The notes under the pieces were generated by a model. The model made no database searches. It was not told the origin of the DNA and saw only the letters and a list, made by a program, of their open reading frames with translations. A stretch of DNA of 64,000 bases. Origin: Patescibacteria group bacterium (GTDB lineage: Bacteria; Patescibacteriota; Patescibacteriia; 2-12-FULL-57-11). The number at the start of each line of letters is the position of its first letter. The stretch's first letter is position 1. Below are positions 1 through 22,940 of the stretch, one piece after another. The position numbers and the translations under genes are program-made. Location of the stretch: contig SCUL01000002.1 in NCBI GenBank assembly GCA_004297205.1, positions 252,594 through 316,593 on the forward strand, given 5' to 3'.

Positions 1-146
1 TCCTGTCCCAGGAAGGAACCTTCCCGTCGTAGACCTCCTGAAGCGCGACCACATCGGGCTTGGTCGCACGAATCAGGGCCAGCACCTCATCCATGAGGTG
101 GCCGCCCAACCAGACGTTGAGGCACAGAAACTTCAACTGCATGGGC
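1..146 (-). CDS. endonuclease/exonuclease/phosphatase (EEP) family protein, N-terminal fragment (gene continues beyond window start)
   Basis: Minus-strand ATG at 144-146 followed by MQLKFLCLNVWLGGHLMDEVLALIRATKPDVVALQEV..., typical EEP-family N-terminus (hydrophobic run + NVW motif); open to window edge. Confidence 0.4.
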
Positions 147-201
147 CATATTCAAACAGAAACGGCGGAAAAAGGGAAGCATGAACCTCACAGCAGGACA
201 A

Positions 202-230
202 TTGATTGAATGGAGGAACCATGATATCTT
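202..230 (+). promoter_or_regulatory. candidate sigma70-type promoter (TTGATT-17-TATCTT) for the 258-4226 operon
   Basis: TTGATT at 202-207, 17-nt spacer, TATCTT at 225-230; located in AT-richer divergent intergenic region, ~28 nt upstream of ATG 258. Confidence 0.4.
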
Positions 231-257
231 CTTCTGGTCTTTATCGGACCAGACAGT

Positions 258-1064
258 ATGCTCGCTACGGTCAAATCACGGCTCCGCCGCAGCTGGGCGG
301 CCATCGGCCTGTACCGCGCCTTGAAAAACGCCGCGGTCTTCCCGTTGCGTTTTACACCGCTGCGCACGCTTCAGCTCAAAAACATGCCGCTTGCCGACCT
401 TGCCAAACCGTGGAAGATCGATCTCCTCCGCAAGGTGAGCCCCTACACCAAGAATGGCTATCCCCGGCTGTCCAACATCTTCGACTGCGCGACGGACGTG
501 GAACGCAGGAAGCTGCCGGGCGCCTTCGTGGAGTGCGGTACCTGGAAGGGCGGAACGACCGCGGTCATGGGCGCGGTCGCGCACCGCTTCGGCGGCACGC
601 GGACAACCTGGTATTTCGATTCGTTCGAAGGCATGCCGGCGCCCGCGCCGCAGGACGGCAGCAAGACGGACGAAATTGCGGGTGATGTGCTCAAAGCGTC
701 CGTTGCCGACGTCGAGGAGCTTGTCTTCGGTACGCTCCACCTTCCCCGGGAGAAAAACCGCATCGTCAAAGGGTGGTTCGAGCACACGTTGCCGGACACC
801 AAAGCGCAGATCGGCCCGATCGCGTTGCTGCGTCTCGACGCGGACTGGTACGAAGCGACGAAACTCATCTTGAACGAACTCTATGACCAGGTCGTCCCCG
901 GCGGCTGGCTGATCTTCGACGACTACGGCCGCTGGCAGGGCTGCAAAACCGCCGTCGACGAATTCTTCGCGGCGCGCGGCCTGTCCCCGAAACTGCACTT
1001 CGTCGGCAGCCGCGGCGGCGTCTACGGCGACCGGCTGGCACCGATGTTTTTCCGAAAAACCTAG
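258..1064 (+). CDS. TylF/MycF-family (macrocin-type) SAM-dependent O-methyltransferase
   Basis: Motifs ECGTWKGG (SAM-binding), LLRLDADWYEATK and IFDDYGRW characteristic of TylF/Methyltransf_24 family; ATG verified at 258. Confidence 0.8.
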   Translation: MLATVKSRLRRSWAAIGLYRALKNAAVFPLRFTPLRTLQLKNMPLADLAKPWKIDLLRKVSPYTKNGYPRLSNIFDCATDVERRKLPGAFVECGTWKGGTTAVMGAVAHRFGGTRTTWYFDSFEGMPAPAPQDGSKTDEIAGDVLKASVADVEELVFGTLHLPREKNRIVKGWFEHTLPDTKAQIGPIALLRLDADWYEATKLILNELYDQVVPGGWLIFDDYGRWQGCKTAVDEFFAARGLSPKLHFVGSRGGVYGDRLAPMFFRKT

Positions 1065-1070
1065 TCTCGT

Positions 1071-1847
1071 ATGGAACGTCTCGCCGCGCTGCCGATCGCC
1101 GAACTCCGGCGGCGCGCACAATCGACGGCGCCGGAGGCCGGACGCGATCCCCTCATTGGATTGACGATCCGGTTTTTTTCGATCTACGTCACGAAGGTGC
1201 TGATCGGCACGCCGATCACGCCGAACCAGGTCACGGCGCTTTCGGTGTTCGTTTTCTTGGCCGGCATGGCGCTGTTCGCGTTCGCATCCGTCCCGCTGTA
1301 CGCCGTCGGCATTTTTCTCGTCTACCTCTCGGTGGTGCTCGACGGCGTGGACGGCGAAATCGCGCGTTTGAAATTCCCGGGGCGCAAAGTCGGCAGCCTG
1401 TGGACCGAACCGGTCAGCCATGACATCCAATACGCGCTCATGTACGTGCCGCTCGCGATCAACGCCTGGCAGGTGACCGGATCGGTCGTTCCCGTTTTCG
1501 TCGGACTCGGCGCCGCCATCACGAAACTGCTGTATCGTCTGCTCGACCACCGTTTCGCCCAGCTGCAGTACTGGCTCAAGGTGGAGGCGGGCGCGGCCCA
1601 ATCGGTGCAGACCTTCCAAACGCCGTTCGTGAAAAACGTCGGGTTTCCGCAACGCGCGTATCGCCTGCTGAACCGGAACGTTTTCAGCTCCGTCGGCCTG
1701 GTGGTGCCGCTGGCCGCGTGCGCCGCGTTCAACCGGATCGACGTCTTTCTCTGGATGTTCGGCGTCTACTACCTGACCGTCACCGTCATCGCGTTCCTGA
1801 AGCACGTCCGGTACGTTTCCGGTCTGGCACGCCCGCCCGCGCCCTGA
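1071..1847 (+). CDS. CDP-alcohol phosphatidyltransferase family membrane protein
   Basis: Multi-TM protein with signature LDGVDGEIAR...G...D (D-G-x2-A-R core of CDP-OH_P_transf); 6-nt gap after upstream stop. Confidence 0.75.
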   Translation: MERLAALPIAELRRRAQSTAPEAGRDPLIGLTIRFFSIYVTKVLIGTPITPNQVTALSVFVFLAGMALFAFASVPLYAVGIFLVYLSVVLDGVDGEIARLKFPGRKVGSLWTEPVSHDIQYALMYVPLAINAWQVTGSVVPVFVGLGAAITKLLYRLLDHRFAQLQYWLKVEAGAAQSVQTFQTPFVKNVGFPQRAYRLLNRNVFSSVGLVVPLAACAAFNRIDVFLWMFGVYYLTVTVIAFLKHVRYVSGLARPPAP

Positions 1848-1853
1848 CCTCCT

Positions 1854-2630
1854 ATGCCGAGACCCTTCACCGGGGTCATCCTCGCCGCGGGCATGGGCAC
1901 GCGCCTGGGAGAAATGACCCGGGACATTCCCAAGCCCCTCCTCGCCGTGAACGGCAAGCCGCTCATCGCGTACGGCACGGACTGGATGCGCGCGGCCGGA
2001 GCGGAACGCGTCGTCGTGGTCGGCGGGTACCGCATCGAGCAGCTGCGCGCTTTTTTATCCGCGCACGATCCGGACGTGATCGTTGCAGAGAATCCCGATT
2101 TCGCCACGACCCAGCGCATGGTCAGCCTGTTGGCCGCCGAGCCGCACGTCACGGGCGACCTTCTCGTCCAAGACGGAGACTACATCTTCACGCGTGCCGC
2201 CGCGGAAGCGCTGGAGCAGGATCCCCCGGAGACGATCGTCGTTCACGGGACGCGCCGCCGGGACGCATGCTGGTCGGCCATGGACGTCATCATCCGCACG
2301 GCAGCGGACGGCAGCATGACCGACATCTTCAAGACGTCCGGCACGCAGCCTTTGGGAACGGGCGAATACTATTTCAACAGCCAGGCGTTCTGGCCTGCAG
2401 ACGCCGTCGCGCCGTTCTTCCGCCACGCCCGCGCATTGATCGCCGCCCGCGGGCCGGTCCTGCACGTGGAGGACGCATTGATGGAATACGTCCGGCATGG
2501 TAAGAGCGTGAACGTCCGTCCGATAGAAACGGGCTACTGGGTCGAGGTGGATACCCCCTCCGAAAAAGAGGCCGCGGAACGCTTCGCCGCCGCCTATCTG
2601 AACGATCTCCCGAACGCATGTCCACGCTGA
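1854..2630 (+). CDS. sugar-/alcohol-phosphate nucleotidyltransferase (LicC/IPCT-like cytidylyltransferase)
   Basis: N-terminal GVILAAGMGTRLG...KPLL (G-x-G-x-R NTP_transferase motif), ~258 aa; starts 7 nt after upstream stop. Confidence 0.75.
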   Translation: MPRPFTGVILAAGMGTRLGEMTRDIPKPLLAVNGKPLIAYGTDWMRAAGAERVVVVGGYRIEQLRAFLSAHDPDVIVAENPDFATTQRMVSLLAAEPHVTGDLLVQDGDYIFTRAAAEALEQDPPETIVVHGTRRRDACWSAMDVIIRTAADGSMTDIFKTSGTQPLGTGEYYFNSQAFWPADAVAPFFRHARALIAARGPVLHVEDALMEYVRHGKSVNVRPIETGYWVEVDTPSEKEAAERFAAAYLNDLPNACPR

Positions 2631-3193
2631 ACATCGGTCTCGATTTCGACGGCGTCATCGCCGACACCAGCGCCCTGAAGCGGGAACACGCCCGGGCGCT
2701 GTTCGGCGTGGAGCTGCCGGCAGACCGCCTGAAGGAACAGATGGTGACCGCGGACGGCCTGATGACGCGGGACCAGTACCGCGCGCTCATGCGCGCCGTC
2801 TGTGCCACACGCGACCTGGGACTGCGCATGGCGCCGCTCCCCGGGATGGATGAGGCGCTCCGCGCGTTGGTCGCTTCCGGGCACGACTGCAAAATCATCA
2901 CCGCGAGATGCGAGGAGGAAGTTGCCGTCGCCCGCGAGTGGTGCCTGTCGCGCGCCCTGCCGGACCTGCCGTTCGTCTCCGTCGGCTACGGCATGCCGAA
3001 GACGGAAGCGGCGCGCGGCCTGGACGCGTATATCGACGATGACCTCCAGAAACTCCTCCCGCTGGTCGGCGCCGTACCGCACCTGTTTCTCTTCACCCAG
3101 CCGCACAACGCGGGGGACGCTGTCCCGCCGGGCATCCGCCGCGTCGCGTCGTGGTACGAATTCACGACGCACCTCGCCGCCGTCCCCTCCTGA
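2618..3193 (+). CDS. HAD-superfamily hydrolase (phosphatase-like)
   Basis: N-terminal IGLDFDGVIADT (HAD motif I DxDG), internal KIITAR/DDD-like motifs; overlaps upstream gene by 13 nt. Confidence 0.65.
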   Translation: MSTLNIGLDFDGVIADTSALKREHARALFGVELPADRLKEQMVTADGLMTRDQYRALMRAVCATRDLGLRMAPLPGMDEALRALVASGHDCKIITARCEEEVAVAREWCLSRALPDLPFVSVGYGMPKTEAARGLDAYIDDDLQKLLPLVGAVPHLFLFTQPHNAGDAVPPGIRRVASWYEFTTHLAAVPS

Positions 3194-3194
3194 T

Positions 3195-4226
3195 ATGCAG
3201 CCCGCGGAACCCCGCCAGCCCGAAGACGCGCATTTTGCGCCGATCGCCGAAATCTTCGGCCTGCGCGGCGGCGTGAATTCAGAAATCCGTTACGTGCGTT
3301 CCCCGCTCGGCACCCTCACGGTGGAAGCGCGGTACGGCGCAAAGAAGGGCGGCTTCCCCCACGCGGAGGCGGTACGCTGGAGCGACGACATCGCCGCGTA
3401 CCACGATGAGCTCGCACGCCGCGGCGTCCCCTTGCCTCCCTTGGAACGGATGGTCATCGAACATGACCGCGCGACGGAACGCGCCGTCATCGTAAAAACC
3501 TCTCCGTGGACCGGCCACGACGTCAGCCACCTGTTGGAACATACTCCGGTCGGCGGTGACCCGGACGCCGTCGCGCGCCTCGTCCGGCAGATCTGCGCCA
3601 TCCTCGTGCCGATCTGCGCGGAACGCCATGTGGGGTGGGAAACGGAAGTCGGCATCGACCCGCGCTGCAGCAACTTCACCGTCGACGCCGACGCACGGAT
3701 GTGGTTCGTGGACCTGTTTCCCCCGCGCTTCCGCAAAAACGGCATCCCCATCGTCGAATGGCCGCACCCGCAGAGCGATGAAGGGTTCCGTCTCGGCGTG
3801 TTCAAACACTTCGACGTCCGCGGCATCGCGCTCACCACCATCGCCCAACTCTCCCGCATTCTCCCTCTGCAGAAAGCGGCGTTCGAGAACGACGTGATCG
3901 CGGGTCTCGCCGCGGCGCTCCGCCCCGAAGAACGGACGGAGCTTGCCGACGGGCTTGCGAGAAGTCCGTGGCACCGCGTACGGACGGCGCTCGCCGCGGG
4001 AAACACGGCCGAGGTGGCGGCGATCATCGCCGGCGCGCCGACGGAACCGGTCTTCGGCGCCCCGTATGGCGTCTATGCATTGCGCGAAATCGCGCTCGAA
4101 CTCGCCGCGGCCGGACGGCTGACGCGGCAGGCCCTGGAAGATTTTTTCCGCGCCTCGCACTACGAGGATGCGCTTCCCAAGGAGAGGCTGGAAGGACTGA
4201 TCCGACAACTCCAGGCGGCCACATAA
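3195..4226 (+). CDS. hypothetical protein, possibly kinase-like (APH/choline-kinase-like fold)
   Basis: ATG at 3195 two nt after HAD stop (TGA-TA-ATG); the long upstream extension of ORF 2802-4226 is Arg/Ser-rich junk; segment GIDPRCSNFTVD...WFVDLFPP loosely resembles a kinase catalytic/Mg-binding region. Confidence 0.5.
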   Translation: MQPAEPRQPEDAHFAPIAEIFGLRGGVNSEIRYVRSPLGTLTVEARYGAKKGGFPHAEAVRWSDDIAAYHDELARRGVPLPPLERMVIEHDRATERAVIVKTSPWTGHDVSHLLEHTPVGGDPDAVARLVRQICAILVPICAERHVGWETEVGIDPRCSNFTVDADARMWFVDLFPPRFRKNGIPIVEWPHPQSDEGFRLGVFKHFDVRGIALTTIAQLSRILPLQKAAFENDVIAGLAAALRPEERTELADGLARSPWHRVRTALAAGNTAEVAAIIAGAPTEPVFGAPYGVYALREIALELAAAGRLTRQALEDFFRASHYEDALPKERLEGLIRQLQAAT

Positions 4227-4256
4227 AACGCCGGTCCCGAAAGGACCGGCGTTTTG
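4225..4256. terminator. bidirectional rho-independent terminator between convergent genes
   Basis: Perfect hairpin AAAACGCCGGTCC-cgaaa-GGACCGGCGTTTT (4225-4255) starting inside TAA stop of 3195-4226 and followed by T-run; A-run on other side serves minus-strand gene ending 4270. Confidence 0.8.
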
Positions 4257-4269
4257 TCGATCCGCGCGG

Positions 4270-4923
4270 TTACTTCTTGCGGAGGAAGTAACAGACGCGC
4301 TTCGAGAACCATTTTGACGCAGGAAGCTTCACACCCGGCACGTACGGAACGAATCCGCCGTCGTATCGCACGTCCTCCCGCGTAAAGTTGACGAGGAAGG
4401 TCTTTGCAAAGACGTCACGGGTTAAAAAGGTGATATGGTTGTTGACCGTGTTGAAGCCCGTGATGTTATTCGAAACGAGGTATTGCACCCTCGCCCACAC
4501 GCTTTCTCCGCTCGGGAAGGAAAGGATGAATGACCCTCCTGGTTTCAACACCCGCGCCGCTTCGCGAGCAAATAAAAAGGGATTTTCCAGGTGCTCCATC
4601 ACCTGGATCGCGGTGACCACGTCGAATGACGCGTCCGCAAAGGGAAGCGCGTCGCGGGACAGATCCAGCACCCGTACCTTGTCCCGCAACGCCTCATGAC
4701 GCACGGAGTTCACGATGTCCGCGCCAAACACTCTTGCCGTTTCGTCACTCTCCTGGATCACCCGCATCGTGCCGCCGGAGCCGCAGCCCAAGTCAAGATA
4801 CGCCTGACCCTTCGGCTGACGGGCCAGGAACGCACGGAAGAACGGCCGCTTCGTCACCCACGCCTGGGAGAATGCGTACCGTTCATTTCCGTAGCTCCAT
4901 GTAGATGGCGCCGTGGTTGACAT
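4270..4923 (-). CDS. class I SAM-dependent methyltransferase
   Basis: LDLGCGSGG SAM motif, D..D acidic loop, Methyltransf_11-like; ATG start chosen at 4923 (M28 of track ORF; upstream part begins with GTG and overlaps next gene). Confidence 0.65.
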   Translation of the reverse strand: MSTTAPSTWSYGNERYAFSQAWVTKRPFFRAFLARQPKGQAYLDLGCGSGGTMRVIQESDETARVFGADIVNSVRHEALRDKVRVLDLSRDALPFADASFDVVTAIQVMEHLENPFLFAREAARVLKPGGSFILSFPSGESVWARVQYLVSNNITGFNTVNNHITFLTRDVFAKTFLVNFTREDVRYDGGFVPYVPGVKLPASKWFSKRVCYFLRKK

Positions 4924-4931: not shown

Positions 4932-5756
4932 TCAGGGTTTCCGTCCGACCAGGAAATGGGCCTGTGCCAATCGCGGACCCGTCTCGAGCGGATACTCCCG
5001 CCACAGGCGGCGAACGCGCGCGACGCCGCGATCCAGGTACGTGAGGGCGCTGTCCAGCGGAAGATAGACCGGCACGAACAGCGGGAACGGGTTGACGTGC
5101 GTGATCGTGAGATCCACGAACCCCGCCGCGGCGGCGTGCGCGGCGTATTGCTCCGCGGTGTCGTTGTTCCTGTAGTAATCCTTCTTCGGGGGCGTCGTTC
5201 GGAACGGACGGATCAGCCGCTTATAGACGGCGTTCAACGACTGCACCGAACGTTTCCCGGGGATGTTCAACGACACCATCAACCCGCCGGGGCGCAAGAC
5301 GCGCAGCGTCTCCGCCATCACCTCGCGGTAATCCTGGAAATGCTCCAAGAGTCCGATGGAACACGCGACATCGAACGCGCCGTCGGGAAAAGGCAAATGC
5401 CGTACGTCGGCCGCGACGAAGGTCCCCGTGCCGCCGTGGTGCGCGAAGTTCCTCCGGGAAAGATCGAGCGCGTCCTCGGAGAGGTCCACGAGCGTCACAT
5501 CGAGGCCGTCGTACGTGTTCAAGTACAGCCCCGCGGTCCCGCGGCCGCACCCGAGTTCGATCGCGTTCTTGAACCCCCGGCCGCGGATCGCGCGACGGAT
5601 GAAGTCGCTGTACCAAAACAGGGAAAACTGCCGCTGCGTCCGAGGCACGCCTCCCTTCGGGACGTAGACCGTCCATTCTTCGCGGTTCACGCCCCCAAGG
5701 CCGGCCATTTTCCACTTCGTTTCAAAAGCGGAGTTGTCCTGCGCAGGCGCGTTCAT
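4932..5756 (-). CDS. class I SAM-dependent methyltransferase
   Basis: IELGCGRGTAG...LVDLS...DVACSIGLLEHF motifs; real start MNAPAQD at 5756 (ATGA overlap with stop of upstream gene at 5753-5755); upstream part of track ORF is Arg-rich junk. Confidence 0.7.
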   Translation of the reverse strand: MNAPAQDNSAFETKWKMAGLGGVNREEWTVYVPKGGVPRTQRQFSLFWYSDFIRRAIRGRGFKNAIELGCGRGTAGLYLNTYDGLDVTLVDLSEDALDLSRRNFAHHGGTGTFVAADVRHLPFPDGAFDVACSIGLLEHFQDYREVMAETLRVLRPGGLMVSLNIPGKRSVQSLNAVYKRLIRPFRTTPPKKDYYRNNDTAEQYAAHAAAAGFVDLTITHVNPFPLFVPVYLPLDSALTYLDRGVARVRRLWREYPLETGPRLAQAHFLVGRKP

Positions 5757-7144
5757 ACCGACGCAGGGTACCGCCCGAGCGCGAACGCGGCAACCGCGCG
5801 GCCCAGGCGCTCGCCGGACTTTCCGTCGACCGTGCCGCAGAAGAATCGGACCAGCGACGCGCGCTCGCGCGCGCGCAGGGACGGGTCCGCGAGGAACGCG
5901 GCCACGGCCTCGTGCAGCCCCTGCTCGGAGCGCACCATCCACGGCGCCCCGCTCGCCACGACCCGGCGGTAGTACTCCGTGGTGTACCACTTCGCGATCG
6001 AATCCCCGAACGGCTTGCGCGCGTAGCCGTCGAAGGCGACGTTGATGACCGGTTTGTCGAATGCCGCCGCGTCGAGGGTCAGCGTCGAATTCGAGGTGAT
6101 CAGGAGGTCGCAGTGGCGGAGCAGGTTCGCCATGTGGCGGATCTGCGCGTCGCTGTAATCCCACTGGTCGCGGAAACCCGCGGACGGGGCGTAGGTGGCG
6201 TCGATGCGGACGTCCGGATCGGATGCGAACCGGGAAAACTTCTGTGCGTCTCCTTTGTAGATGAAATGCGGACGGATGAAGAGCTGGGCGGGCGCGCCAA
6301 AGCCTCCCGACCGGATCCCTTTGAGCAGCATGTCGACGATGTCCGGATCATGCTTCGCGATCTTCCCTTCCGAGGCGTACACGATCACTTTCTTCGCCGG
6401 ATCCAACCCGAGCCCGCGGAGGAACTCGGCGCGCGGCACGACGAGGCGCTCGTCGCGGTAGGCGTCGAACTGCGGAATCCCGGTTTCCACAACGTCGGCA
6501 TCCCGCATGTTCTGGAACGTCCGCGCCTCCTCCCGGGAATACGGCGCCCAGACGGCCATGCGGTCCGGTTTCACGCGGACGCTCATTTTGGATAGGTTGT
6601 CCCAAGACTTCGGCATGCCGATGATCGGGACGCCGCGTTGCCGCGCCTGCTTGGCCACGGACACGTCCATGTCTTCCATGATGCTGGTACAAAAAACCGC
6701 GACCGGGTCGTACCGGGCAAAAAGGTCGCCGTAGGTGCGGTCGCGTACGAGCGCCGCATCAAGGGCGCGCGCTGCTTCCTTGAGCCAGCCGATCGTACGC
6801 AACGGGCGGAAGACGATGCGCTTCGCCCAATAGCGCGCCGTGTTCGCTTCCTTGGGATCGTAAATGCCGTAGCGGTCGCGCATCTCGGTGCTTGCGTTGT
6901 ACACGAGCGCCTTGTGCAGGCCCACCAGCAGGCCGTCCAGCCAGCTCCAGCGCGGCTCGGACAACGGCGCGAACGTCACGCCGGGCGCGGAAAACTCCGC
7001 CAAGAATCGCGGGTCGTTCCAGGCGGGAGTGAGGACCACCAATCGCAGTCCGGACGCGCGCAGCACCCGGAGCACGTCCGTCTTCAAGATATTGCGCGCG
7101 GTGCCGCCGCGCGACACGGTGACGAAAAGGACGCGCTCGTTCAC
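5753..7144 (-). CDS. CDP-glycerol glycerophosphotransferase (TagB/TagF, Glyphos_transf) family protein
   Basis: C-terminal ...LLITSNSTLTLDAAAFDKPVINV... typical of Glyphos_transf; paralogue of 13546-14925. Confidence 0.55.
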   Translation of the reverse strand: MNERVLFVTVSRGGTARNILKTDVLRVLRASGLRLVVLTPAWNDPRFLAEFSAPGVTFAPLSEPRWSWLDGLLVGLHKALVYNASTEMRDRYGIYDPKEANTARYWAKRIVFRPLRTIGWLKEAARALDAALVRDRTYGDLFARYDPVAVFCTSIMEDMDVSVAKQARQRGVPIIGMPKSWDNLSKMSVRVKPDRMAVWAPYSREEARTFQNMRDADVVETGIPQFDAYRDERLVVPRAEFLRGLGLDPAKKVIVYASEGKIAKHDPDIVDMLLKGIRSGGFGAPAQLFIRPHFIYKGDAQKFSRFASDPDVRIDATYAPSAGFRDQWDYSDAQIRHMANLLRHCDLLITSNSTLTLDAAAFDKPVINVAFDGYARKPFGDSIAKWYTTEYYRRVVASGAPWMVRSEQGLHEAVAAFLADPSLRARERASLVRFFCGTVDGKSGERLGRAVAAFALGRYPASV

Positions 7145-7913: not shown

Positions 7914-8894
7914 TCACGCCGCGCCGGGCTCGCCCGGCAGCGATACGTTTTCGTCCCAATTCCACACCACGGCGCCCTGGGCGTCGCGCGAGGCGAAGCG
8001 GCCGCGGTAGTAGTCGCGGTTCAGCATTTCGGCATGGGAGAGCGGACGCGTTTCGCTTCCGAGCATCGCCGTGAATTCCGGAATCATCCGGCGCGCCTCG
8101 GCATGGCGGGCGTGGATCGGCAGCTTGGCGAACGCGGCGAGTTCCTTGAGCTCTTTCGGTCCGATGGACACCGGGCCGTCTTTGGTTTCCTCCGGCGGCA
8201 GGATCGTGAAGTGCCGTTCGATCACGTCGGCCCCCATCGCGAGCGCGGCAAGCGACGCCTTGATGCCGTCGCGGGCCACGAGGGTGTGGTCGCTGAACCC
8301 CACGGACGGCGTGAAGCGGCGCAGCCAGCGCATCCGGTTCAGGTGGGCCTCCGCGAGCGGTGTCGGGTAGATGCTCACGCAATGCAGAAACGAGAAGCTG
8401 TGGATACCCAACGCCTGGGCCGTCCGCTCGACTTCCCAGTCGTAGCACGTCCCGGTGGAAATGAAGAGGTGCGAAAAATGCTGCGCCAGCGAACGGATTA
8501 ACGGCAGCGACGCGCCGTCGAAGCTCGCGACCTTCACCTCTTTCCATCCCAGCGCGACCATGTCCTTCACGCGGCCGCGCGTGAAGATGGTCGTGAGCGG
8601 GCGGATCCCCACGCGCTGGCATTCATCGACGAACCAGGCGTAATCATCCATGGTCAGATCCATGGGACGAAGGCGGGCGTACTCCGCGCCGTAGGGGCGC
8701 TTGATCACCTGGACGACACCATGCTCGTCCGTGATCCCCTCCTCAAAACGGTCGCGTTTCACCAGGTCGTCGGCGAACGCGGTTTGTATCTTGGCATGAG
8801 TGGCGCCGGCCTCATGGGCGGCCGCGATCATCTCCCGGAGCGCGCCGCGGTCCCCCTTGTGGTTTTGGCAAAATTCGGCGATCAGCGTGGTCAT
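7914..8894 (-). CDS. nonulosonic (sialic/legionaminic/pseudaminic-type) acid synthase, NeuB family
   Basis: N-terminal IAEFCQNHKGD...AKIQT matches NeuB/PseI/LegI signature; C-terminal SAF-like region. Confidence 0.75.
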   Translation of the reverse strand: MTTLIAEFCQNHKGDRGALREMIAAAHEAGATHAKIQTAFADDLVKRDRFEEGITDEHGVVQVIKRPYGAEYARLRPMDLTMDDYAWFVDECQRVGIRPLTTIFTRGRVKDMVALGWKEVKVASFDGASLPLIRSLAQHFSHLFISTGTCYDWEVERTAQALGIHSFSFLHCVSIYPTPLAEAHLNRMRWLRRFTPSVGFSDHTLVARDGIKASLAALAMGADVIERHFTILPPEETKDGPVSIGPKELKELAAFAKLPIHARHAEARRMIPEFTAMLGSETRPLSHAEMLNRDYYRGRFASRDAQGAVVWNWDENVSLPGEPGAA

Positions 8895-8903
8895 ATTGCG
8901 GCG

Positions 8904-10073
8904 TCATGCTAGCACGGCATCGGCGATTTGGGAAGCCGCGTACCCGATTCCGTCGAGGGTGCCGAAGCGCTCCCGAAGCGCCGCATACCGCGCGTCAATC
9001 GCGGGCTGAAGCCGCTGCGCGGAAGCGATGGCCTCGGCCGGATCCGCACCCTGCCGCCAGATCGCGCCCAACTCCAAGGCCTCGACCGTCCGGTTGTTGT
9101 AGTAAATCTCAGGGAAGTCGTCCTCGAGGAACTCCGGACAGGCGAGCGGTTTCCGCGAAAGGTTCGCCAACCAGATCGTATTCCACGCCGCCCGCGCAAC
9201 CACCGACTGGATCGCCGGATGCGCGACGTATTTGGGATGGAGACGCACCGCGTTCGGGATTTCCGGTATTTCCTGGTTGACGTAGAGCCGCCATCCCTGT
9301 GCCGCCACGTGGCGATACAAGCGTCCCAGGTGCGGAATGCCGGACACGAGCACGTACACGCCCGGAGCGAGCTCTCCCTCGGTCACCGGCGCGGGCGGAT
9401 GGAACAGCGGCGGGGTCCGCCGTTCTTCGGGACGAAACGGCGCGCCGTCGGGGATCCAGGAAAACACGCTGGGTTCCGGCTGAAAGTAGATGTCCTGTCC
9501 GTCCTCCGCAGTGCGGGCGTTGTCCGCTGCTGCCGCGAGCAGGTCCGCGTCATAACGGCGGAATTGCGACTCGTCCAGGCTCTGGCGGAGAATGCGCTCC
9601 AGGTAGCCGATCGACGTGTAGAACGAGCGGATCCTCCCCATGCGGACGTTGGGATTGCGGCTGACGGAAAGGAAGAGTTCGTCCGGCGCAACCGTCACGG
9701 AAACGCCGTCGAGCGTGATCCCCGCAATGCGCTCGGCAAGATGGGCATCCACGGCGCGCTGGATCTCCGGGTACCGGCGCGCCAGCCGCTCAAGGGTGAT
9801 CGTGAAATCGCGACCGTCGTACAGCAGCGCGTCGAGGAGTTTTCCCAGCGCGGCATCCAGAACGAACAATCCGGGGTCCTTCTCCAATTCCGCCGAAAAA
9901 TCTTCCCGGAGCAGCCGCGGCAGCCGGTCGCCATAGACATGCGGAACGAGTATCCGGTACGTGACGTCCGGTTGAACGGCCGTGAGCCGTTCGCGGACGG
10001 CCAGCGCCAGGTCCACCGCGCGCAGCAACGGTCCGTTGCCGCAGCCGAAATTGACGACCAGATACCTGATCAT
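8904..10073 (-). CDS. hypothetical protein (possibly GT-B fold nucleotide-sugar hydrolase/transferase, PseG-like)
   Basis: 389 aa, N-terminal LVVNFGCGNGPLLRAVDLALAV Rossmann-like start; no confident family assignment from sequence alone. Confidence 0.4.
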   Translation of the reverse strand: MIRYLVVNFGCGNGPLLRAVDLALAVRERLTAVQPDVTYRILVPHVYGDRLPRLLREDFSAELEKDPGLFVLDAALGKLLDALLYDGRDFTITLERLARRYPEIQRAVDAHLAERIAGITLDGVSVTVAPDELFLSVSRNPNVRMGRIRSFYTSIGYLERILRQSLDESQFRRYDADLLAAAADNARTAEDGQDIYFQPEPSVFSWIPDGAPFRPEERRTPPLFHPPAPVTEGELAPGVYVLVSGIPHLGRLYRHVAAQGWRLYVNQEIPEIPNAVRLHPKYVAHPAIQSVVARAAWNTIWLANLSRKPLACPEFLEDDFPEIYYNNRTVEALELGAIWRQGADPAEAIASAQRLQPAIDARYAALRERFGTLDGIGYAASQIADAVLA

Positions 10074-13520: not shown

Positions 13521-13549
13521 AGTATGGGACCTCCGGCGCCATCGGTCAA
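13521..13549 (-). promoter_or_regulatory. candidate internal promoter (TTGACC-17-CATACT) upstream of dehydrogenase gene
   Basis: On minus strand TTGACC (13549-13544, overlapping upstream stop) 17-nt spacer CATACT (13526-13521). Confidence 0.25.
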
Positions 13550-14925
13550 GCCGGCGCGCCGGGACGCGCCATCGCGAGAATGGCCGCGGCGACGCGCTCG
13601 GCGGACCGTCCGTCGAGCGGGCCGCACATCCGCTCGCGCAGACGGGCCCGGCCGGCGGCATCCGCGGCGGGGTGCGCGATGGCATCCGCGATTTCCCGCT
13701 TCAGTTCCTCGTCGCTGTGCGCCATGCGCACGCCGCCGGACTTCAGCACGTCCTGGTAAAAATCGACCCCGTAGATCCAGCGCGTGACGTCCCTCCCCTT
13801 CTTGTCCACCGTGACGCCGTAGAGGATGTTGATGCACGGCCGATCAAGCACCGCCGCGTCGAGCGAGAGCGTCGAGCGGACGCACAGCACCGCCGCGGCG
13901 TGGCGGACGACGTTCATGAACCGCACGACCTCCTCGGGCGACGGATCCCAGCGGTCTTGGAAGTAGTCGCGCAAACGGTGCTGGTCGTCGATGACGACGC
14001 CGGGAACGCCCCGCACCGATTCGTACAACTTCTTGTCGACGTCGATGAAATACGGACGCACCACGAGGGACAGCGGCCCGAGCGATGCTTCGCGCACCCA
14101 CTGCGCAAGCCGCTCCACCAGCGCCGGATCGCCGGCGGACCAGGGTCCCTCCGCGCCGTACACGATGTACGGTTTTGCGGGATCGACGCCGAGCGCGGCG
14201 CAGGTCCGCTCCCGCGTCCACGCGTTCTCCGGCCGGAGGTACGCGTCAAACACGGGAAAACCGGCGAGCGTGATGTCTTCCGGCGCGTAGCGGTGGTTGC
14301 GGATCGCCTGTTCCCGCATCGGCTCGTTCTGCGCGACCAGCCGGTCCGGATGCACCTGCATCGTGAGCTTGTCGAGCGTATCCCACCCCTTGGGCATGGC
14401 CACCGTCGGGACGCGGCGACGTTTGGCTTCCTTCACCAGCATGATGTCCTCCTTCGAAAAAATCGAAAGCTGCACGGCGACCTCCGGTCGGTACCGGTCG
14501 AAGTACGGCGCGAACACCCGGTCCGCAAAGAGGCGGAGCTCCAACCACTGCAGCGCCGGACGGATGAACAGCACGTGCGACAACGGGAAGTAGAACGCGA
14601 ACGTCAGCGCATAAAGCCAGGGCGGCATCGCGGTCGCCTTTCCGGTGCCGTAGCGCATGTGGATGCGGCGGGTGCGGTTGAACAGCGAATTGCGCACGAG
14701 CGGAACGAACAGCTTGCGCCGCAACTTGCTGTACCCGATGGGCGGCAACGGCTCGAACACGACCCGGGGATCCGGAAAATCCGCACGCAGGTCGGGAATC
14801 GCGCGGTCCGGGACGAACAGCACGACCCGCGCGTCCGGCCGGTCGAGCAGGCGGGCGAGTGGTCCCATCCGCAGAATGTTGCGGCAGACGAGTCCTTTGT
14901 TGACGACGGCGAAGATGGTGGTCAT
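13546..14925 (-). CDS. CDP-glycerol glycerophosphotransferase (TagB/TagF, Glyphos_transf) family protein
   Basis: Paralogue of 5753-7144 (...RSTLSLDAAVLDRPCINI...); start uncertain (ATG at 14925 MTTIF aligns with paralogue; alternatives 14934 ATG, 14970 TTG). Confidence 0.55.
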   Translation of the reverse strand: MTTIFAVVNKGLVCRNILRMGPLARLLDRPDARVVLFVPDRAIPDLRADFPDPRVVFEPLPPIGYSKLRRKLFVPLVRNSLFNRTRRIHMRYGTGKATAMPPWLYALTFAFYFPLSHVLFIRPALQWLELRLFADRVFAPYFDRYRPEVAVQLSIFSKEDIMLVKEAKRRRVPTVAMPKGWDTLDKLTMQVHPDRLVAQNEPMREQAIRNHRYAPEDITLAGFPVFDAYLRPENAWTRERTCAALGVDPAKPYIVYGAEGPWSAGDPALVERLAQWVREASLGPLSLVVRPYFIDVDKKLYESVRGVPGVVIDDQHRLRDYFQDRWDPSPEEVVRFMNVVRHAAAVLCVRSTLSLDAAVLDRPCINILYGVTVDKKGRDVTRWIYGVDFYQDVLKSGGVRMAHSDEELKREIADAIAHPAADAAGRARLRERMCGPLDGRSAERVAAAILAMARPGAPA

Positions 14926-14979
14926 AGGTTCCATGCCGGGAAGTCTGTCACAAAAAAGAGGACGAAACAACCCGGGACC

Positions 14980-16353
14980 TCACCCCGGGGCGGGTCCGCG
15001 CCGAAGGCCGCGCAACCGGGAGCGGGCCGCCTCAACGATGCGCGCAACGGCCCGCCGGTCGAAGTCATCTACGGTCGCCAGGTCACGGAGCACGAAACTG
15101 CGGACACCCAACCGCCGCAACCGCCATTCGCGCACGACGATCATCGCCGCCGTGCTCGCCTGATGGACGAGCAACGCGCCGGCGGCGCCGAGCGCTTTGG
15201 AAAACGCCGGCAGCGCGGCCAACACGGCTGCCGTATTCACCGCGGAAACGGCCAGAAGGAACCGTTGCTGGCCGTGGGCATAGAGGAGCGGCGCATGGCT
15301 CATGGACAGCGCGTCCAGGAACAGCGACGGCAGGACGAGGTAAAACACCGGCACCGCGGACGCGTACTTGGGGAAGAAAAGCGCGACCGCCCACGGCATC
15401 GTGACGGCGGCCAACAAAACCACCGCGGCATAGAACCAGATGCCATACTTCGACATGCGCTGGGCGACGAAGGCACTCCCCCGCGTTTCAGAAGACATGC
15501 GGGCGAGCACCGGGAACAAGATCTGCCGGAACGGCAGCATCTGGCTGATCACGGATTTCACCGTGACCGCCAGGCTGTACACGGCCACGGCCTGCAATCC
15601 GGCGACGAGGCCGAGCAACCAGACGTCGACGCCGGAAAACAGTTGGTCGACGCCGCCGCGCGCCATTTCCCACTTGCCGCCACCGCGCATGAGCTTCCAC
15701 ACCTGCGCCGCCGCGGACCGCATGCCGTTGCCGGGGCTCAGGAACGCGCCCACGCCCGGCACGAGCAGGACGACACCCGCCCCCTTCGCGATGACGTAGG
15801 ACCAAAGCACCGTGGCAACGGAAAGCTGGCCCATGAAAACAAACGCGCCGACGACCGCCAACCGCACCGCCGACTCCGCAATCGTCGATGTGGCCAGCAC
15901 CGGGAAGCGCTCCTGGAGCTGGACACCGTGGTTGCCGATGACGGACAGGATGGTCATGGCGACCCAGCACTGCAACGGCAGGATGAACCCGCGCACCACC
16001 GGCTCGTACGTCGGGCCGAGCACTCCGGGAAGCAGACCCATGGCGACGATGGCAAGCGCCGCCATGAGGATGCGCTGCAAAGCGAATCCCCGCATCAGGT
16101 CCGCCGCGGCGGCGGCATGGTGTTCGCCCCGGAGCCGGGCGGCGGTGGCCAACACGACGTCATCCAACGCCAGGCCGGACAGGGTCAAGACGGGTCCGGA
16201 CACGCTGAGCGCCAAGGCCAGGACGCCGTAATCCTGCACCGAAAGACCCGCGGTGATCAGCAGGACCGAAACGAAGGAAAAGCCCCGGGTCGCCATGCGG
16301 GCGCCGCTGATCGTGAGCGACCCGAGCGCGAGCGTGCGGAAAAGGCGCGCCAT
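14980..16353 (-). CDS. polysaccharide/oligosaccharide flippase (Wzx, MOP superfamily)
   Basis: 457 aa, ~12 predicted TM helices, Ala/Leu/Val-rich, typical Wzx-like organisation inside glycan cluster. Confidence 0.7.
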   Translation of the reverse strand: MARLFRTLALGSLTISGARMATRGFSFVSVLLITAGLSVQDYGVLALALSVSGPVLTLSGLALDDVVLATAARLRGEHHAAAAADLMRGFALQRILMAALAIVAMGLLPGVLGPTYEPVVRGFILPLQCWVAMTILSVIGNHGVQLQERFPVLATSTIAESAVRLAVVGAFVFMGQLSVATVLWSYVIAKGAGVVLLVPGVGAFLSPGNGMRSAAAQVWKLMRGGGKWEMARGGVDQLFSGVDVWLLGLVAGLQAVAVYSLAVTVKSVISQMLPFRQILFPVLARMSSETRGSAFVAQRMSKYGIWFYAAVVLLAAVTMPWAVALFFPKYASAVPVFYLVLPSLFLDALSMSHAPLLYAHGQQRFLLAVSAVNTAAVLAALPAFSKALGAAGALLVHQASTAAMIVVREWRLRRLGVRSFVLRDLATVDDFDRRAVARIVEAARSRLRGLRRGPAPG

Positions 16354-21175: not shown

Positions 21176-21178
21176 ACG

Positions 21179-22938: not shown

Positions 22939-22940
22939 AT

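What the first reader, a model, noticed from the sequence alone, without database searches (positions are those of the whole stretch)
258..4226. Compact CDP-alcohol activation/transfer operon next to a giant glycan cluster: candidate phospho-alcohol (teichoic-acid-like) decoration pathway
- Five tightly packed genes on one strand, with 2-13 nt gaps or overlaps: TylF-type O-methyltransferase, CDP-alcohol phosphatidyltransferase (DGVDGEIAR), LicC/IPCT-like cytidylyltransferase, HAD phosphatase and a kinase-like protein.
- Kinase + cytidylyltransferase + CDP-alcohol phosphotransferase is the logic of LicA/LicC/LicD phosphocholine decoration and of IPCT/DIPPS polyol-phosphate synthesis.
- Here that set sits beside two TagF-like glycerophosphotransferases and about 25 glycan genes.
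- This suggests a phosphodiester-linked alcohol, aminoalcohol or polyol substituent on a surface glycan. The operon layout is not a textbook one.
Basis: partly seen in the sequence, partly recalled or inferred. Interest (0 to 1): 0.6.

Follow-up and report, generated by a model that had tools for sequence, protein, structure and literature searches.

The report
CDP-alcohol transfer operon in a CPR bacterium
Five tightly packed genes in an ultra-small (Patescibacteria) bacterium most likely make a CTP-activated small alcohol and attach it through a phosphate bridge to a cell-envelope molecule, using an unusual transferase and an unannotated kinase-like protein that recur together only in this bacterial group.

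Summary
Window 258-4226 (+) is one five-gene unit: TylF-type O-methyltransferase, CDP-alcohol phosphotransferase, LicC/PntC/IPCT-clade cytidylyltransferase, NT5C-type HAD hydrolase and a protein-kinase-fold protein. It runs from a divergent intergenic region to a strong hairpin terminator.

The same genes in the same order occur in at least four other Patescibacteria lineages at 38-61% identity. In one lineage the transferase and the cytidylyltransferase are fused into a single ORF.

- **Transferase:** it belongs to the AF2299/DIPPS clade, not PgsA/PssA. All 36 close relatives replace the canonical G-x3-D-x3-D half of the signature with G-x4-E-P-x-S-H-D.
- **Module swapping:** other Patescibacteria keep the transferase and cytidylyltransferase but replace TylF, HAD and kinase-like genes with a sugar-phosphate-cyclase fusion, an SDR and an APH kinase.
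the neighbouring "TagF-like" proteins match a nonulosonic-acid transferase family better than TarB/TarF, so the teichoic-acid context is weaker than claimed.

Best reading: a kinase, cytidylyltransferase and phosphotransferase pathway that installs a phosphodiester-linked, probably methylated, small alcohol on a Wzx-exported glycan. The alcohol, the acceptor and the HAD's role are unknown. I class it as a new variant of a known kind, of moderate interest.

The parts
143..257 (.). Intergenic region between a divergent Exo_endo_phos gene (minus strand, ends inside window 1-142) and the first gene of the operon; presumed promoter region
   Evidence: Gene calls of the matching contig L001. Sequence read. 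No sigma-70 consensus match was found.
258..1064 (+). TylF-family metal-dependent O-methyltransferase
   Evidence: Pfam TylF E 4e-46. Nearest PDB relatives are sugar O-methyltransferases NovP and MycF, 1e-22 to 1e-32. One or two copies sit directly upstream of the transferase in L002-L005, L031 and L034.
1071..1847 (+). Integral-membrane CDP-alcohol phosphotransferase of a divergent, Patescibacteria-restricted clade. Signature is D91-G-V-D94-G-E-I-A-R99 ... G108-x4-E113-P-x-S116-H117-D118.
   Evidence: Pfam 20.1 bits, below the cut-off. NCBIfam best hits are archaetidylinositol-P synthase 7e-11 and IPCT/DIPPS 6e-9. Family profile: AF2299 1e-17, DIPPS 2e-7, PIPS 3e-5. AF2 model pLDDT 90.6; Foldseek top hits AF2299, DIPPS and PIPS. 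Motif census.
1854..2630 (+). LicC/PntC/IPCT-clade nucleotidyl- (probably cytidylyl-) transferase, with G-x-G-T-R-L and P-K-P-L-L motifs
   Evidence: Pfam NTP_transf_3 1e-14. Single sequence: LicC 7e-11. Family profile A3 with full-length hits: PntC 2e-31, IMPCT 5.5e-18, IPCT 7.6e-16. Sugar-1-P transferases are weaker and align only at the N-terminus. Fused to the transferase in L034.
2618..3193 (+). NT5C-type HAD hydrolase, motif I D-F-D-G-V; a phosphatase or phosphotransferase whose step is uncertain
   Evidence: Pfam NT5C 37.7 bits against a cut-off of 24.8. Only weak PDB matches to 5'(3')-deoxyribonucleotidases. 38 homologues; the few that carry a source name are Patescibacteria. Relatives at 41% identity are stand-alone genes in unrelated neighbourhoods.
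3195..4226 (+). Protein-kinase-fold protein of an unannotated family (weak DUF6206); presumed small-molecule kinase
   Evidence: 21 close homologues. D155, N160 and D173 are invariant; K51 is nearly invariant. AF2 pLDDT 91. 568 Foldseek matches at E<=1e-3, the listed ones almost all protein kinases, with TM only 0.3-0.39. A homologue at 31% identity sits beside two NTP_transferase genes in an unrelated locus.
4223..4257 (.). Bidirectional intrinsic-terminator-like hairpin shared with the convergent methyltransferase gene: 15-bp stem, loop CGAAA, A-run before and U-run after
   Evidence: Sequence. RNA fold -25.4 kcal/mol, z = -5.6, 0 of 200 shuffles as stable.
14980..16353 (-). Wzx-type flippase (Polysacc_synt). 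This is context: the orthologue lies directly next to the cassette in other lineages.
   Evidence: Pfam 1.6e-10. Adjacent to the kinase-like gene in L031 and L034, and close upstream of the transferase in L018.
5753..7144 (-). PF04464 (TagB/TagF-like) GT-B protein (context): either a CDP-alcohol-dependent phosphotransferase or a CMP-nonulosonate transferase
   Evidence: Precomputed PF04464 hit. NCBIfam best hit is the BFO_1060 family, 2.2e-11. No PDB sequence match. Co-occurs with the cassette in most loci.
13546..14970 (-). Second PF04464-like protein (context)
   Evidence: Pfam 24.9 bits against a cut-off of 22.1. NCBIfam BFO_1060 family 2.6e-6. No PDB sequence match.

Best explanation
The operon is a self-contained module that adds a phospho-alcohol to a Patescibacteria envelope glycan.

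Proposed steps (all steps are inferred; none has been shown biochemically):
1. The kinase-fold protein phosphorylates a small hydroxyl compound X.
2. The LicC/PntC/IPCT-clade enzyme condenses X-phosphate with CTP to give CDP-X.
3. The TylF enzyme O-methylates X, CDP-X or the neighbouring sugar.
4. The six-helix membrane transferase moves X-phosphate from CDP-X onto an acceptor hydroxyl at the cytoplasmic face of the membrane and releases CMP. The acceptor is most likely an undecaprenyl-linked repeat unit, modified before Wzx exports it.
5. The HAD enzyme handles a phosphate somewhere in this path. It may dephosphorylate a precursor, supply or remove a second phosphate, or dephosphorylate the product as in PGP, PIP or DIPP pathways.

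What is shown rather than inferred:
- the gene order;
- the family and fold assignments;
- conserved synteny;
- the transferase-cytidylyltransferase fusion;
- the replacement of the precursor genes by a different set in sister lineages.
For: **Operon.** It is tightly packed and bounded by a hairpin terminator.

**Conserved order.** The same five genes occur in the same order in L002/L003/L009 (Uhrbacteria), L004/L005, L031 and L034, at 38-61% identity.

**Gene fusions:**
- The transferase and cytidylyltransferase form one uninterrupted 508-aa ORF in L034.
- An APH kinase fragment is fused to a transferase in P0031.

**Family placement:**
- The cytidylyltransferase profile is closest, over its full length, to enzymes that activate small phospho- or phosphono-alcohols: PntC 2e-31, LicC 1.5e-25, IMPCT 5.5e-18, IPCT 7.6e-16.
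- The transferase is closest to AF2299 and DIPPS, which use soluble CDP-alcohols and are naturally paired with a cytidylyltransferase domain.

**Kinase.** The kinase fold and catalytic residues are conserved. The link between this kinase family and an NTP-transferase recurs in an unrelated locus.

**Module swapping.** Sister lineages keep the transferase and cytidylyltransferase. They replace TylF, HAD and the kinase-like gene with a cyclase fusion, an SDR and an APH kinase. This is the pattern expected if those genes supply the alcohol.

**Location.** The cassette always lies inside glycan loci next to a Wzx flippase.

**Precedent.** C. difficile FtaABCD combines a HAD, a cytidylyltransferase, a methyltransferase acting on the CDP-intermediate and a phosphotransferase. 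It installs phospho-N-methylthreonine on a glycan (PMC10714395; bioRxiv 10.64898/2026.02.12.704994).
Against: - No substrate is identified, and no biochemical data exist for any member.
- The transferase lacks the canonical G-x3-D-x3-D half of the signature. D2 is Asn in some members. Its chemistry or acceptor may therefore differ from known family members.
- The window protein is below the Pfam cut-off.
- The kinase-like protein matches no curated kinase family. hhalign against the sister-cassette APH kinases gives E 0.15.
- Distant HAD relatives are stand-alone genes. The HAD could therefore be a generic nucleotidase, for example acting on CMP.
- CTP specificity is inferred from family membership only.
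- The glycan acceptor is inferred from genomic location only.
Confidence: 0.5

Rival explanations
1. Kennedy-type or inositol-lipid-type head-group pathway. CDP-X is transferred to a membrane lipid such as diacylglycerol or another lipid alcohol. Alternatively, a phospho-alcohol acceptor yields a lipid or anchor that the HAD then dephosphorylates. The product would be a membrane lipid or lipid anchor rather than a glycan substituent.
For: - The nearest curated families are archaetidylinositol-phosphate synthase, DIPPS and PIPS.
- The trio of NTP transferase, CDP-alcohol phosphatidyltransferase and HAD has been proposed for a CDP-inositol route in Bacteroides vulgatus and Prevotella. There the transferase and HAD are sometimes fused (PMC9246714).
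- A product phosphatase is a regular partner of PgsA, PIPS and DIPPS-type enzymes (established knowledge).
Against: - The cassette is always embedded in glycan loci beside Wzx, glycosyltransferases and nonulosonic-acid genes.
- No inositol-1-phosphate synthase or CDP-diacylglycerol synthase was seen among the window genes scanned.
- The HAD here is NT5C-type, and whether it resembles the Bacteroides HAD was not tested.
Confidence: 0.2
2. Sugar salvage or remodelling to a nucleotide sugar. The steps would be HAD phosphatase, anomeric kinase, then nucleotidyltransferase. This is the logic of MupP/AmgK/MurU or HddA/GmhB/HddC (own knowledge). The membrane enzyme would then transfer sugar-1-phosphate.
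For: - A distant homologue of the kinase-like protein lies next to two ordinary sugar-1-P-type NTP_transferase genes, an IMPase-family gene and GlmS.
- The single-sequence NCBIfam hits of the 1854-2630 product include full-length AglF (5e-20) and archaeal GlmU (2e-17).
- TylF relatives methylate sugars.
Against: - With a family profile, the full-length best matches are PntC, LicC, IMPCT and IPCT. Sugar-1-P transferases are at least 13 orders of magnitude weaker than PntC (about 4 orders weaker than IMPCT) and match only the N-terminal nucleotide-binding part.
- No known CDP-alcohol-family enzyme transfers sugar-1-phosphate (own knowledge).
Confidence: 0.12
3. Synthesis of a soluble polyol-phosphodiester compatible solute of the di-myo-inositol-phosphate or glycerophosphoinositol type. 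The HAD would act as the final phosphatase.
For: The pairing of an IPCT-like and a DIPPS-like enzyme, plus a phosphatase, is the DIP pathway layout (established knowledge of IPCT/DIPPS).
Against: - Scores against the IPCT/DIPPS equivalog model are 35-46 bits, against a cut-off of 580.
- No inositol-phosphate synthase was found in the window.
- The cassette is always placed inside glycan export loci.
- Known DIP producers are (hyper)thermophiles (own knowledge). The related contigs come from assorted environmental metagenomes.
Confidence: 0.05
4. The membrane protein is just the organism's housekeeping phospholipid synthase (PgsA/PssA-like), and the adjacency of the other four genes is incidental.
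For: Some database sources label distant relatives 'phosphatidylglycerophosphate synthase'.
Against: - There is no PgsA hit, and PssA reaches only E 4e-3 to 5e-3.
- The order is conserved in several lineages, and the protein is fused to the cytidylyltransferase in one.
- The signature variant is discrete.
Confidence: 0.03

Closest known systems
IPCT/DIPPS of Archaeoglobus fulgidus (PDB 4MND) and AF2299 (PDB 4O6M), CDP-alcohol phosphotransferases that use soluble CDP-alcohols
   Same: - They are the best sequence-profile and fold matches of the 1071-1847 family.
- They are paired with an IPCT/LicC-clade cytidylyltransferase, and the pair is fused in one lineage.
- The D-x2-D-G-x2-A-R half of the signature and the P-N-Q-x-T region are conserved.
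   Different: - The second half of the signature is G-x4-E-P-x-S-H-D instead of G-x3-D-x3-D.
- The fusion order is reversed, with the transferase N-terminal.
- Equivalog scores are far below the cut-off.
- No inositol-phosphate synthase is present.
- The system sits in a glycan locus and has an added kinase, HAD and methyltransferase.
FtaABCD (CD0241-CD0244) of Clostridioides difficile: phospho-N-methylthreonine modification of flagellin GlcNAc
   Same: It is an operon of a HAD-family enzyme, a CTP:phospho-alcohol cytidylyltransferase, a SAM methyltransferase acting on the CDP-intermediate and a CDP-alcohol-dependent phosphotransferase. It makes a phosphodiester-linked small molecule on a glycan (PMC10714395; bioRxiv 10.64898/2026.02.12.704994).
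   Different: - There the transferase is soluble and TagF-like. Here it is a membrane CDP-OH_P_transf-type enzyme.
- There the HAD is ThrH/PSP-like and no kinase is present. Here the HAD is NT5C-type and there is a separate kinase-fold protein.
- There the methyltransferase is a minimal class I N-methyltransferase. Here it is a TylF O-methyltransferase.
LicA/LicC/LicD phosphocholine decoration (Streptococcus, Haemophilus)
   Same: It follows the same logic of kinase, cytidylyltransferase and transfer of a phospho-alcohol to a surface glycan. LicC is among the best structural relatives of the 1854-2630 product.
   Different: - No LicD-family transferase was seen.
- The kinase-like protein is not in the APH/choline-kinase Pfam family.
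- A HAD and a TylF enzyme are present in addition.
Putative alternative inositol-lipid cluster of Bacteroides vulgatus and Prevotella (NTP transferase + CDP-alcohol phosphatidyltransferase + HAD)
   Same: It has the same three domain families side by side and a proposed CDP-alcohol (Kennedy-like) logic. It is likewise unconfirmed (PMC9246714).
   Different: - That cluster sits next to an inositol-phosphate synthase and a lipid context, and its transferase has the canonical signature.
- Here there is no such synthase, the signature is a variant, the locus is a glycan locus, and a kinase and TylF are added.
- Sequence relatedness to the Bacteroides proteins was not tested.
Eukaryotic and Treponema Kennedy pathway (choline/ethanolamine kinase, CCT/LicC, CPT/EPT)
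   Same: It uses a kinase, a cytidylyltransferase and a CDP-OH_P_transf-family membrane enzyme acting on a soluble CDP-alcohol.
   Different: Human CEPT1 is only a marginal fold match (Foldseek E 0.74). Its acceptor is diacylglycerol, whereas here the acceptor is unknown and the context is glycan assembly.

Membership tests
CDP-alcohol phosphotransferase superfamily (Pfam PF01066) | Signature D-x2-D-G-x2-A-R ... G-x3-D-x3-D on transmembrane helices 2-3 | tested here: not met
   The first half is present (D91-G-V-D94-G-E-I-A-R99). The second half is G108-x4-E113-P-x-S116-H117-D118. 34 of 36 close relatives match the strict variant pattern and the other two differ by one residue. All 84 distant hits keep the canonical form.
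CDP-alcohol phosphotransferase superfamily (Pfam PF01066) | Score above the Pfam gathering threshold | tested here: inconclusive
   The window protein scores 20.1 bits against a cut-off of 22. The relative in L018 scores 30.8 bits. Several relatives carry precomputed PF01066 hits.
CDP-alcohol phosphotransferase superfamily (Pfam PF01066) | Six-helix membrane fold like solved members | tested here: met
   The AF2 model has pLDDT 90.6. Foldseek gives AF2299 at E 8e-6 with TM 0.57, then DIPPS and PIPS. The family profile hits AF2299 at 1e-17.
IPCT/DIPPS di-myo-inositol-phosphate system | NCBIfam equivalog score (NF041135, cut-off 580) | tested here: not met
   35.5 bits for the transferase and 45.9 bits for the nucleotidyltransferase.
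IPCT/DIPPS di-myo-inositol-phosphate system | Cytidylyltransferase of the IPCT clade coupled or fused to the transferase | tested here: met
   Profile A3 hits IPCT at 7.6e-16 and IPCT/DIPPS at 2.7e-15 over their full length. The two genes are adjacent everywhere and fused in L034.
IPCT/DIPPS di-myo-inositol-phosphate system | myo-inositol-1-phosphate synthase supplying the substrate | tested here: not met
   No such domain appears among the window genes scanned or in precomputed calls covering about 0-47 kb and 50-63 kb. The rest of the 856-kb contig could not be examined.
LicA/LicC/LicD phosphocholine pathway | LicA-type choline kinase (Pfam APH PF01636) | tested here: not met
   The 3195-4226 product has no APH hit, only weak DUF6206. 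It does have a kinase fold.
LicA/LicC/LicD phosphocholine pathway | LicC-type cytidylyltransferase | tested here: met
   LicC (1JYK) is hit at 7e-11 with the single sequence and at 1.5e-25 with the family profile. Substrate specificity was not tested.
LicA/LicC/LicD phosphocholine pathway | LicD-family phosphocholine transferase | tested here: not met
   No LicD domain appears among the genes of the cassette or the window genes scanned.
TagB/TagF teichoic-acid glycerophosphotransferases (neighbouring genes 5753-7144 and 13546-14970) | Pfam PF04464 above threshold | tested here: met
   13546-14970 scores 24.9 bits against a cut-off of 22.1. 5753-7144 has a precomputed PF04464 hit.
TagB/TagF teichoic-acid glycerophosphotransferases (neighbouring genes 5753-7144 and 13546-14970) | Closest curated relatives are TarB, TarF or TagF, and a CDP-glycerol or CDP-ribitol supply gene is present | tested here: not met
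   The best NCBIfam hit for all eight proteins tested is the BFO_1060 family (a nonulosonic-acid-derivative transferase), at 1e-6 to 1e-19. TarB/TarF reach only about 1e-3. There is no PDB sequence match. No TagD-type gene was seen in the window.
Protein-kinase-like fold kinases | Beta-3 lysine, catalytic loop D-x4-N and metal-binding Asp conserved; kinase fold | tested here: met
   D155, N160 and D173 are invariant and K51 is nearly invariant in 21 sequences. Foldseek gives 568 matches at E<=1e-3; the 50 listed are almost all protein kinases, at probability 1.00 but TM only 0.3-0.39. Activity is not testable here.
HAD superfamily, NT5C subfamily | Pfam NT5C above threshold and motif I D-x-D | tested here: met
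   37.7 bits against a cut-off of 24.8. The sequence reads LDFDGVIAD. The substrate is not testable here.
TylF/NovP/MycF O-methyltransferases | Pfam TylF above threshold and similarity to solved sugar O-methyltransferases | tested here: met
   157.8 bits. PDB matches to NovP and MycF at 1e-22 to 1e-32.

The most novel reading that the evidence does not exclude
The E-P-x-S-H-D clade may be a previously unrecognised class of CDP-alcohol phosphotransferase, largely or wholly confined to Patescibacteria.

On this reading it decorates lipid-linked envelope glycans (or primes them) with unusual phosphodiester-linked head groups. Interchangeable precursor modules would define a family of different head groups:
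- HAD + new kinase + TylF, giving a methylated polyol or sugar-like alcohol;
- sugar-phosphate cyclase + SDR + homoserine-kinase-like APH, giving a cyclitol or hydroxy-amino-acid-like alcohol.

That would amount to a surface chemistry specific to the candidate phyla radiation, with new CDP-activated metabolites.
Probability: 0.3. Interest if true: 0.75.

Novelty: new variant of a known kind. Interest (0 to 1): 0.55.

Why it matters
- **Biology.** Patescibacteria live attached to other microbes, and their envelope is the interface of that lifestyle. Almost nothing is known about its chemistry.
- **Tractability.** This cassette is compact and conserved. It could be expressed as a unit to reveal a new CDP-activated metabolite and a phosphodiester-linked surface substituent.
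- **Enzymology.** It offers a natural variant of the CDP-alcohol phosphotransferase active site (E-P-x-S-H-D in place of D-x3-D). That variant tests current ideas on metal binding and the catalytic base in the superfamily. It would also assign a function to an unannotated kinase-fold family.
- **Annotation.** PF04464 'TagF-like' hits next to nonulosonic-acid genes should not be read as evidence of teichoic acid.

Tried and rejected
**Libraries unavailable or look-ups that failed**
- Exact-sequence contig look-ups failed for two window proteins.

**Searches that found little**
- A sequence-profile search of the PDB with the kinase-like family gave only spurious ancestral PyrR hits.
- hhalign of that family against the APH kinases of sister cassettes was not significant, at E 0.15. 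It did align the D..N loop and the metal Asp.
- Both PF04464-like proteins had no PDB sequence match.
- The HAD had only marginal PDB matches.
- Rfam found nothing in the window, so no riboswitch hints at the ligand.
- The sigma-70 scan found no promoter, and the terminator scan missed the real hairpin because its U-run is four long.
- The paper library holds nothing on DUF6206. Nothing among the listed results linked this cassette to Patescibacteria.

**Readings considered and rejected**
- Phosphonate (PntC/Ppm) decoration: no PEP mutase domain was seen.
- CDP-glycerol teichoic acid: no TagD, and the TagF-like proteins look like nonulosonate transferases.
- Recent horizontal import: GC content is 62-67%, like the flanks.

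**Not attempted**
- A formal phylogeny against PgsA, Pcs and EPT references, because reference sequences could not be fetched. E-values, the motif census and fold ranks were used instead.

Full report
**Source and setting**

The exact protein encoded at 1071-1847 is on record as a hypothetical protein (EPO33_02605) of a 'Patescibacteria group bacterium' MAG, on a contig of 855,898 bp. The window has 62-75% G+C throughout, and the operon does not stand out. Most of the window is one very large glycan locus on the minus strand:
- at least six class I methyltransferases and a second TylF gene;
- NeuB-like and PseF-like nonulosonic-acid genes;
- a Wzx flippase and three tandem Wzy_C/TPR proteins;
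- GT2 and GT4 glycosyltransferases, DegT, an Asn-synthase-type amidotransferase, and dehydrogenases and epimerases.

The five genes of the finding are on the plus strand and converge on this locus.

**The observation**

ORFs at 258-1064, 1071-1847, 1854-2630, 2618-3193 and 3195-4226 are real. An independent metagenome assembly calls them identically. The junctions are +6, +6, -13 and +1 nt. Upstream lies a 115-nt intergenic region shared with a divergent Exo_endo_phos gene. Immediately after the stop codon sits a 15-bp hairpin flanked by an A-run and a U-run. It folds at -25.4 kcal/mol with z = -5.6, and is shared with the convergent gene. This is therefore one transcription unit.

**Family assignments**

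- *Gene 1* is a clear TylF-family O-methyltransferase (E 4e-46). Its solved relatives are the sugar O-methyltransferases NovP and MycF.
- *Gene 3* belongs to the short nucleotidyltransferases. Alone it hits LicC best (7e-11). As a family profile (A3) it gives full-length matches to PntC (2e-31), T. maritima IMPCT (5.5e-18), IPCT (7.6e-16) and IPCT/DIPPS (2.7e-15), plus a partial match to LicC (1.5e-25). Sugar-1-phosphate nucleotidyltransferases come later and match only the N-terminal nucleotide-binding part. The clade it falls in activates small phospho- or phosphono-alcohols with CTP. Known substrates include phosphocholine, 2-aminoethylphosphonate, inositol-1-phosphate and, more recently, phosphoglycerate (PMC12275187).
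- *Gene 4* is an NT5C-type HAD with an intact D-x-D motif.
- *Gene 5* matches no curated family; DUF6206 is below threshold. An alignment of its 21 homologues keeps D155, N160 and D173 invariant and K51 nearly invariant. These sit at the positions of the kinase beta-3 lysine, catalytic loop and metal-binding Asp. The AlphaFold model is confident (pLDDT 91). Foldseek returns 568 PDB matches at E<=1e-3, and the listed ones are almost all protein kinases. TM-scores are low (0.3-0.39), so this is a divergent member of the fold.

**The transferase**

Gene 2 carries LDGVDGEIAR but scores below the Pfam threshold (20.1 against 22). Its best curated matches are archaetidylinositol-phosphate synthase, IPCT/DIPPS and PIPS. 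PssA is marginal and PgsA is absent. A profile of 30 relatives hits AF2299 at 1e-17, IPCT/DIPPS at 2e-7, PIPS at 3e-5 and PssA at 5e-3. The AlphaFold model (pLDDT 90.6) ranks AF2299, DIPPS and PIPS first, and human CEPT1 is marginal.

The alignment explains the low Pfam score. The second half of the family signature, G-x3-D-x3-D, is replaced by G-x4-E-P-x-S-H-D, and E113, P114, S116, H117 and D118 are invariant.

A census makes this a discrete clade. All 36 hits down to E 1e-32 have the variant; two differ from the strict pattern by one residue. After a gap to 3.5e-12, all 84 remaining hits have the canonical motif. The second Asp of the first half is Asn in some members. The invariance argues for a working active site of altered design. 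What the alteration means for donor, acceptor or mechanism cannot be said from sequence.

**Synteny**

The same order occurs on several other contigs: one or two TylF genes, then the transferase, the cytidylyltransferase, the NT5C HAD and the kinase-like gene. These are:
- Candidatus Uhrbacteria contigs (L002, L003, L009);
- a second lineage (L004, L005);
- L031;
- L034.

Identities to the window proteins range from 38 to 61%.

In L031 and L034 the next genes are a Wzx flippase and two PF04464-like genes. In L034 the transferase and the cytidylyltransferase are one uninterrupted 508-codon ORF with both sets of motifs. This fusion is the strongest single piece of evidence that the product of gene 3 is the donor for gene 2. 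A second fusion, an APH kinase fragment joined to a transferase (P0031), links a kinase to the transferase.

This is only a proxy.

**A wider family with exchangeable parts**

A scan of one genome per species found 20 loci encoding the variant transferase. Thirteen are labelled Patescibacteria (Uhr-, Magasanik-, Falkow-, Saccharibacteria and unclassified), one simply 'bacterium'. Six low-GC MAGs are labelled 'uncultured Gammaproteobacteria', and I did not verify that label.

An orthologue of gene 3 lies within a few kb in 12 of the 20 loci. Most of the other eight end a few kb or less downstream of the transferase; L025, which has about 7.8 kb downstream, has none. A PF04464-like gene is present in most loci.

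TylF, the NT5C HAD and the kinase-like gene are confined to the close subgroup. The other loci carry, in the same place:
- a 575-640-aa fusion of a second nucleotidyltransferase with an AroB-like sugar-phosphate cyclase;
- an SDR;
- an APH-family kinase most like type II homoserine kinase;
- then the gene-3 orthologue, a class I methyltransferase and one or two PF04464-like genes.

So the transferase and cytidylyltransferase are a constant core. The genes that plausibly make and phosphorylate the alcohol are interchangeable. This pattern is expected if the core installs whatever CDP-activated head group the variable module supplies. It also suggests that in the window's version the HAD acts on the precursor side. 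It takes the place of a cyclase step that likewise removes a phosphate before a kinase puts one back. That is an argument by analogy only.

**The accessory proteins outside the cassette**

A homologue of the kinase-like protein at 31% identity, in a Parcubacteria genome, sits after two NTP_transferase genes and beside an IMPase-family gene, with no transferase nearby. This independently ties the kinase family to nucleotide activation.

A profile search of 1.84 billion representatives finds only 346 relatives. Some are fused to P-loop or guanylate-kinase-like domains.

HAD relatives at 41% identity are stand-alone genes in unrelated neighbourhoods. The cassette copy may therefore derive from a general nucleotidase-like enzyme. 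A role in removing CMP cannot be excluded.

**The neighbours**

They do hit PF04464, one marginally and one through a precomputed hit. However, they and five of their relatives in other loci — eight proteins tested in all — match the NCBIfam BFO_1060 family best, at 1e-6 to 1e-19, always below that model's cut-off. TarB and TarF appear only at about 1e-3.

BFO_1060 is the Tannerella forsythia legionaminic-acid-derivative transferase, a TagB-domain enzyme that uses a CMP-sugar (PMC5420450). Nonulosonic-acid genes accompany many of these loci. These proteins may therefore be nonulosonate transferases, so the teichoic-acid reading of the context is not secured.

Equally, C. difficile FtaD shows that a TagF-like enzyme can transfer an unusual phospho-alcohol from a CDP donor to a glycan (bioRxiv 10.64898/2026.02.12.704994). 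They therefore cannot be excluded as users of CDP-X.

**Most likely mechanism**

I favour a modification pathway in five parts:
1. The kinase makes X-phosphate.
2. The cytidylyltransferase makes CDP-X.
3. TylF methylates X, CDP-X or a neighbouring sugar. In Fta, methylation occurs on the CDP-intermediate.
4. The membrane transferase passes X-phosphate to a hydroxyl on a lipid-linked glycan at the inner face of the membrane.
5. Wzx then exports the glycan.

Confidence is about 0.5 for the general scheme and much lower for any single detail.

The rivals, in order:
- a lipid head-group or anchor pathway of the Kennedy or inositol-lipid type, echoing the unconfirmed trio of NTP transferase, CDP-alcohol transferase and HAD in Bacteroides vulgatus (PMC9246714);
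- a sugar-salvage route to a nucleotide sugar;
- a soluble DIP-like solute;
- a housekeeping phospholipid synthase, which is largely excluded.

**Novelty and verdict**

The logic is known from LicABC, IPCT/DIPPS, the Kennedy pathway and FtaABCD. The parts and their combination are not: a discrete transferase clade with an altered signature, an unannotated kinase-fold family, an NT5C-type HAD and a TylF enzyme. They occur in a fixed order in a little-studied bacterial group, with a modular precursor set. I found no description of it in the searchable literature. I class it as a new variant of a known kind, with moderate interest.

Noticed in passing
L018:10750-12663 (also L006, L010-L017, L019, L021): In sister Patescibacteria loci the variant transferase is followed by a 575-640-aa fusion of an NTP_transferase domain with an AroB-like sugar-phosphate cyclase. 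The cyclase scores 262 bits on TIGR01357, below the cut-off, and also hits TIGR04425. Then come an SDR and a homoserine-kinase-like APH kinase. This suggests a CDP-activated cyclitol or similar head group.
   Followed up: partly
window 5753-7144 (-) and 13546-14970 (-); L018, L031, L006, L002 relatives: All PF04464 'TagF-like' proteins of these loci match the BFO_1060 family best. That family is the Tannerella forsythia legionaminic-acid-derivative transferase. They match TarB/TarF much less well, and they sit near NeuB/PseF-like genes. They may be nonulosonic-acid transferases.
   Followed up: partly
window 7914-11766 (-) and 19736-28868 (-): The gene content resembles the chemistry of the Tannerella forsythia O-glycan. 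It includes a NeuB-like synthase, a PseF-like CMP-synthetase, a 2-hydroxyacid dehydrogenase, a UDP-sugar dehydrogenase, an Asn-synthase-type amidotransferase, a UDP-GlcNAc 2-epimerase and many methyltransferases. A 389-aa protein with no family (8904-10073) sits between NeuB and the CMP-synthetase.
   Followed up: no
window 35015-41615 (-): Three tandem paralogues of about 730 aa, each combining a Wzy_C (O-antigen ligase/polymerase) domain with TPR repeats.
   Followed up: no
window 41746-45615 (-): A 1289-aa ORF with no Pfam family and an odd codon-position composition (GC1 0.53, GC3 0.90). It lies next to a DUF5667 protein and a sigma-70-type factor (45684-47434). It may be a large surface protein under ECF-type control.
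   Followed up: no
window 57210-62681 (-): An 1823-aa ORF in a 74% G+C stretch with repeated Cu-binding_MopE motifs (Pfam E 3e-92). The opposite strand also carries a long open frame, so the true coding strand should be checked.
   Followed up: no
window 4469-4548 (-) and 34872-34965 (+): ARAGORN calls two tRNAs (Gly-CCC of 80 nt, Arg-TCG of 94 nt) that lie inside protein-coding genes and have unusual lengths. They are probably false positives.
   Followed up: no
P0229 (572 aa), P0283, P0312: Distant members of the kinase-like (DUF6206-related) family are fused to guanylate-kinase-like or AAA-type P-loop domains.
   Followed up: no
L012, L018, L022, L025, L027, L028: Six low-GC MAGs that carry the Patescibacteria-type variant transferase are labelled 'uncultured Gammaproteobacteria bacterium' in their records. 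The label may be wrong, or the cassette may occur outside Patescibacteria.
   Followed up: no
window 52504-54621 (-): A 705-aa protein combining a GHL15 putative glycoside-hydrolase domain with FG-GAP repeats, next to two GT4 glycosyltransferases.
   Followed up: no
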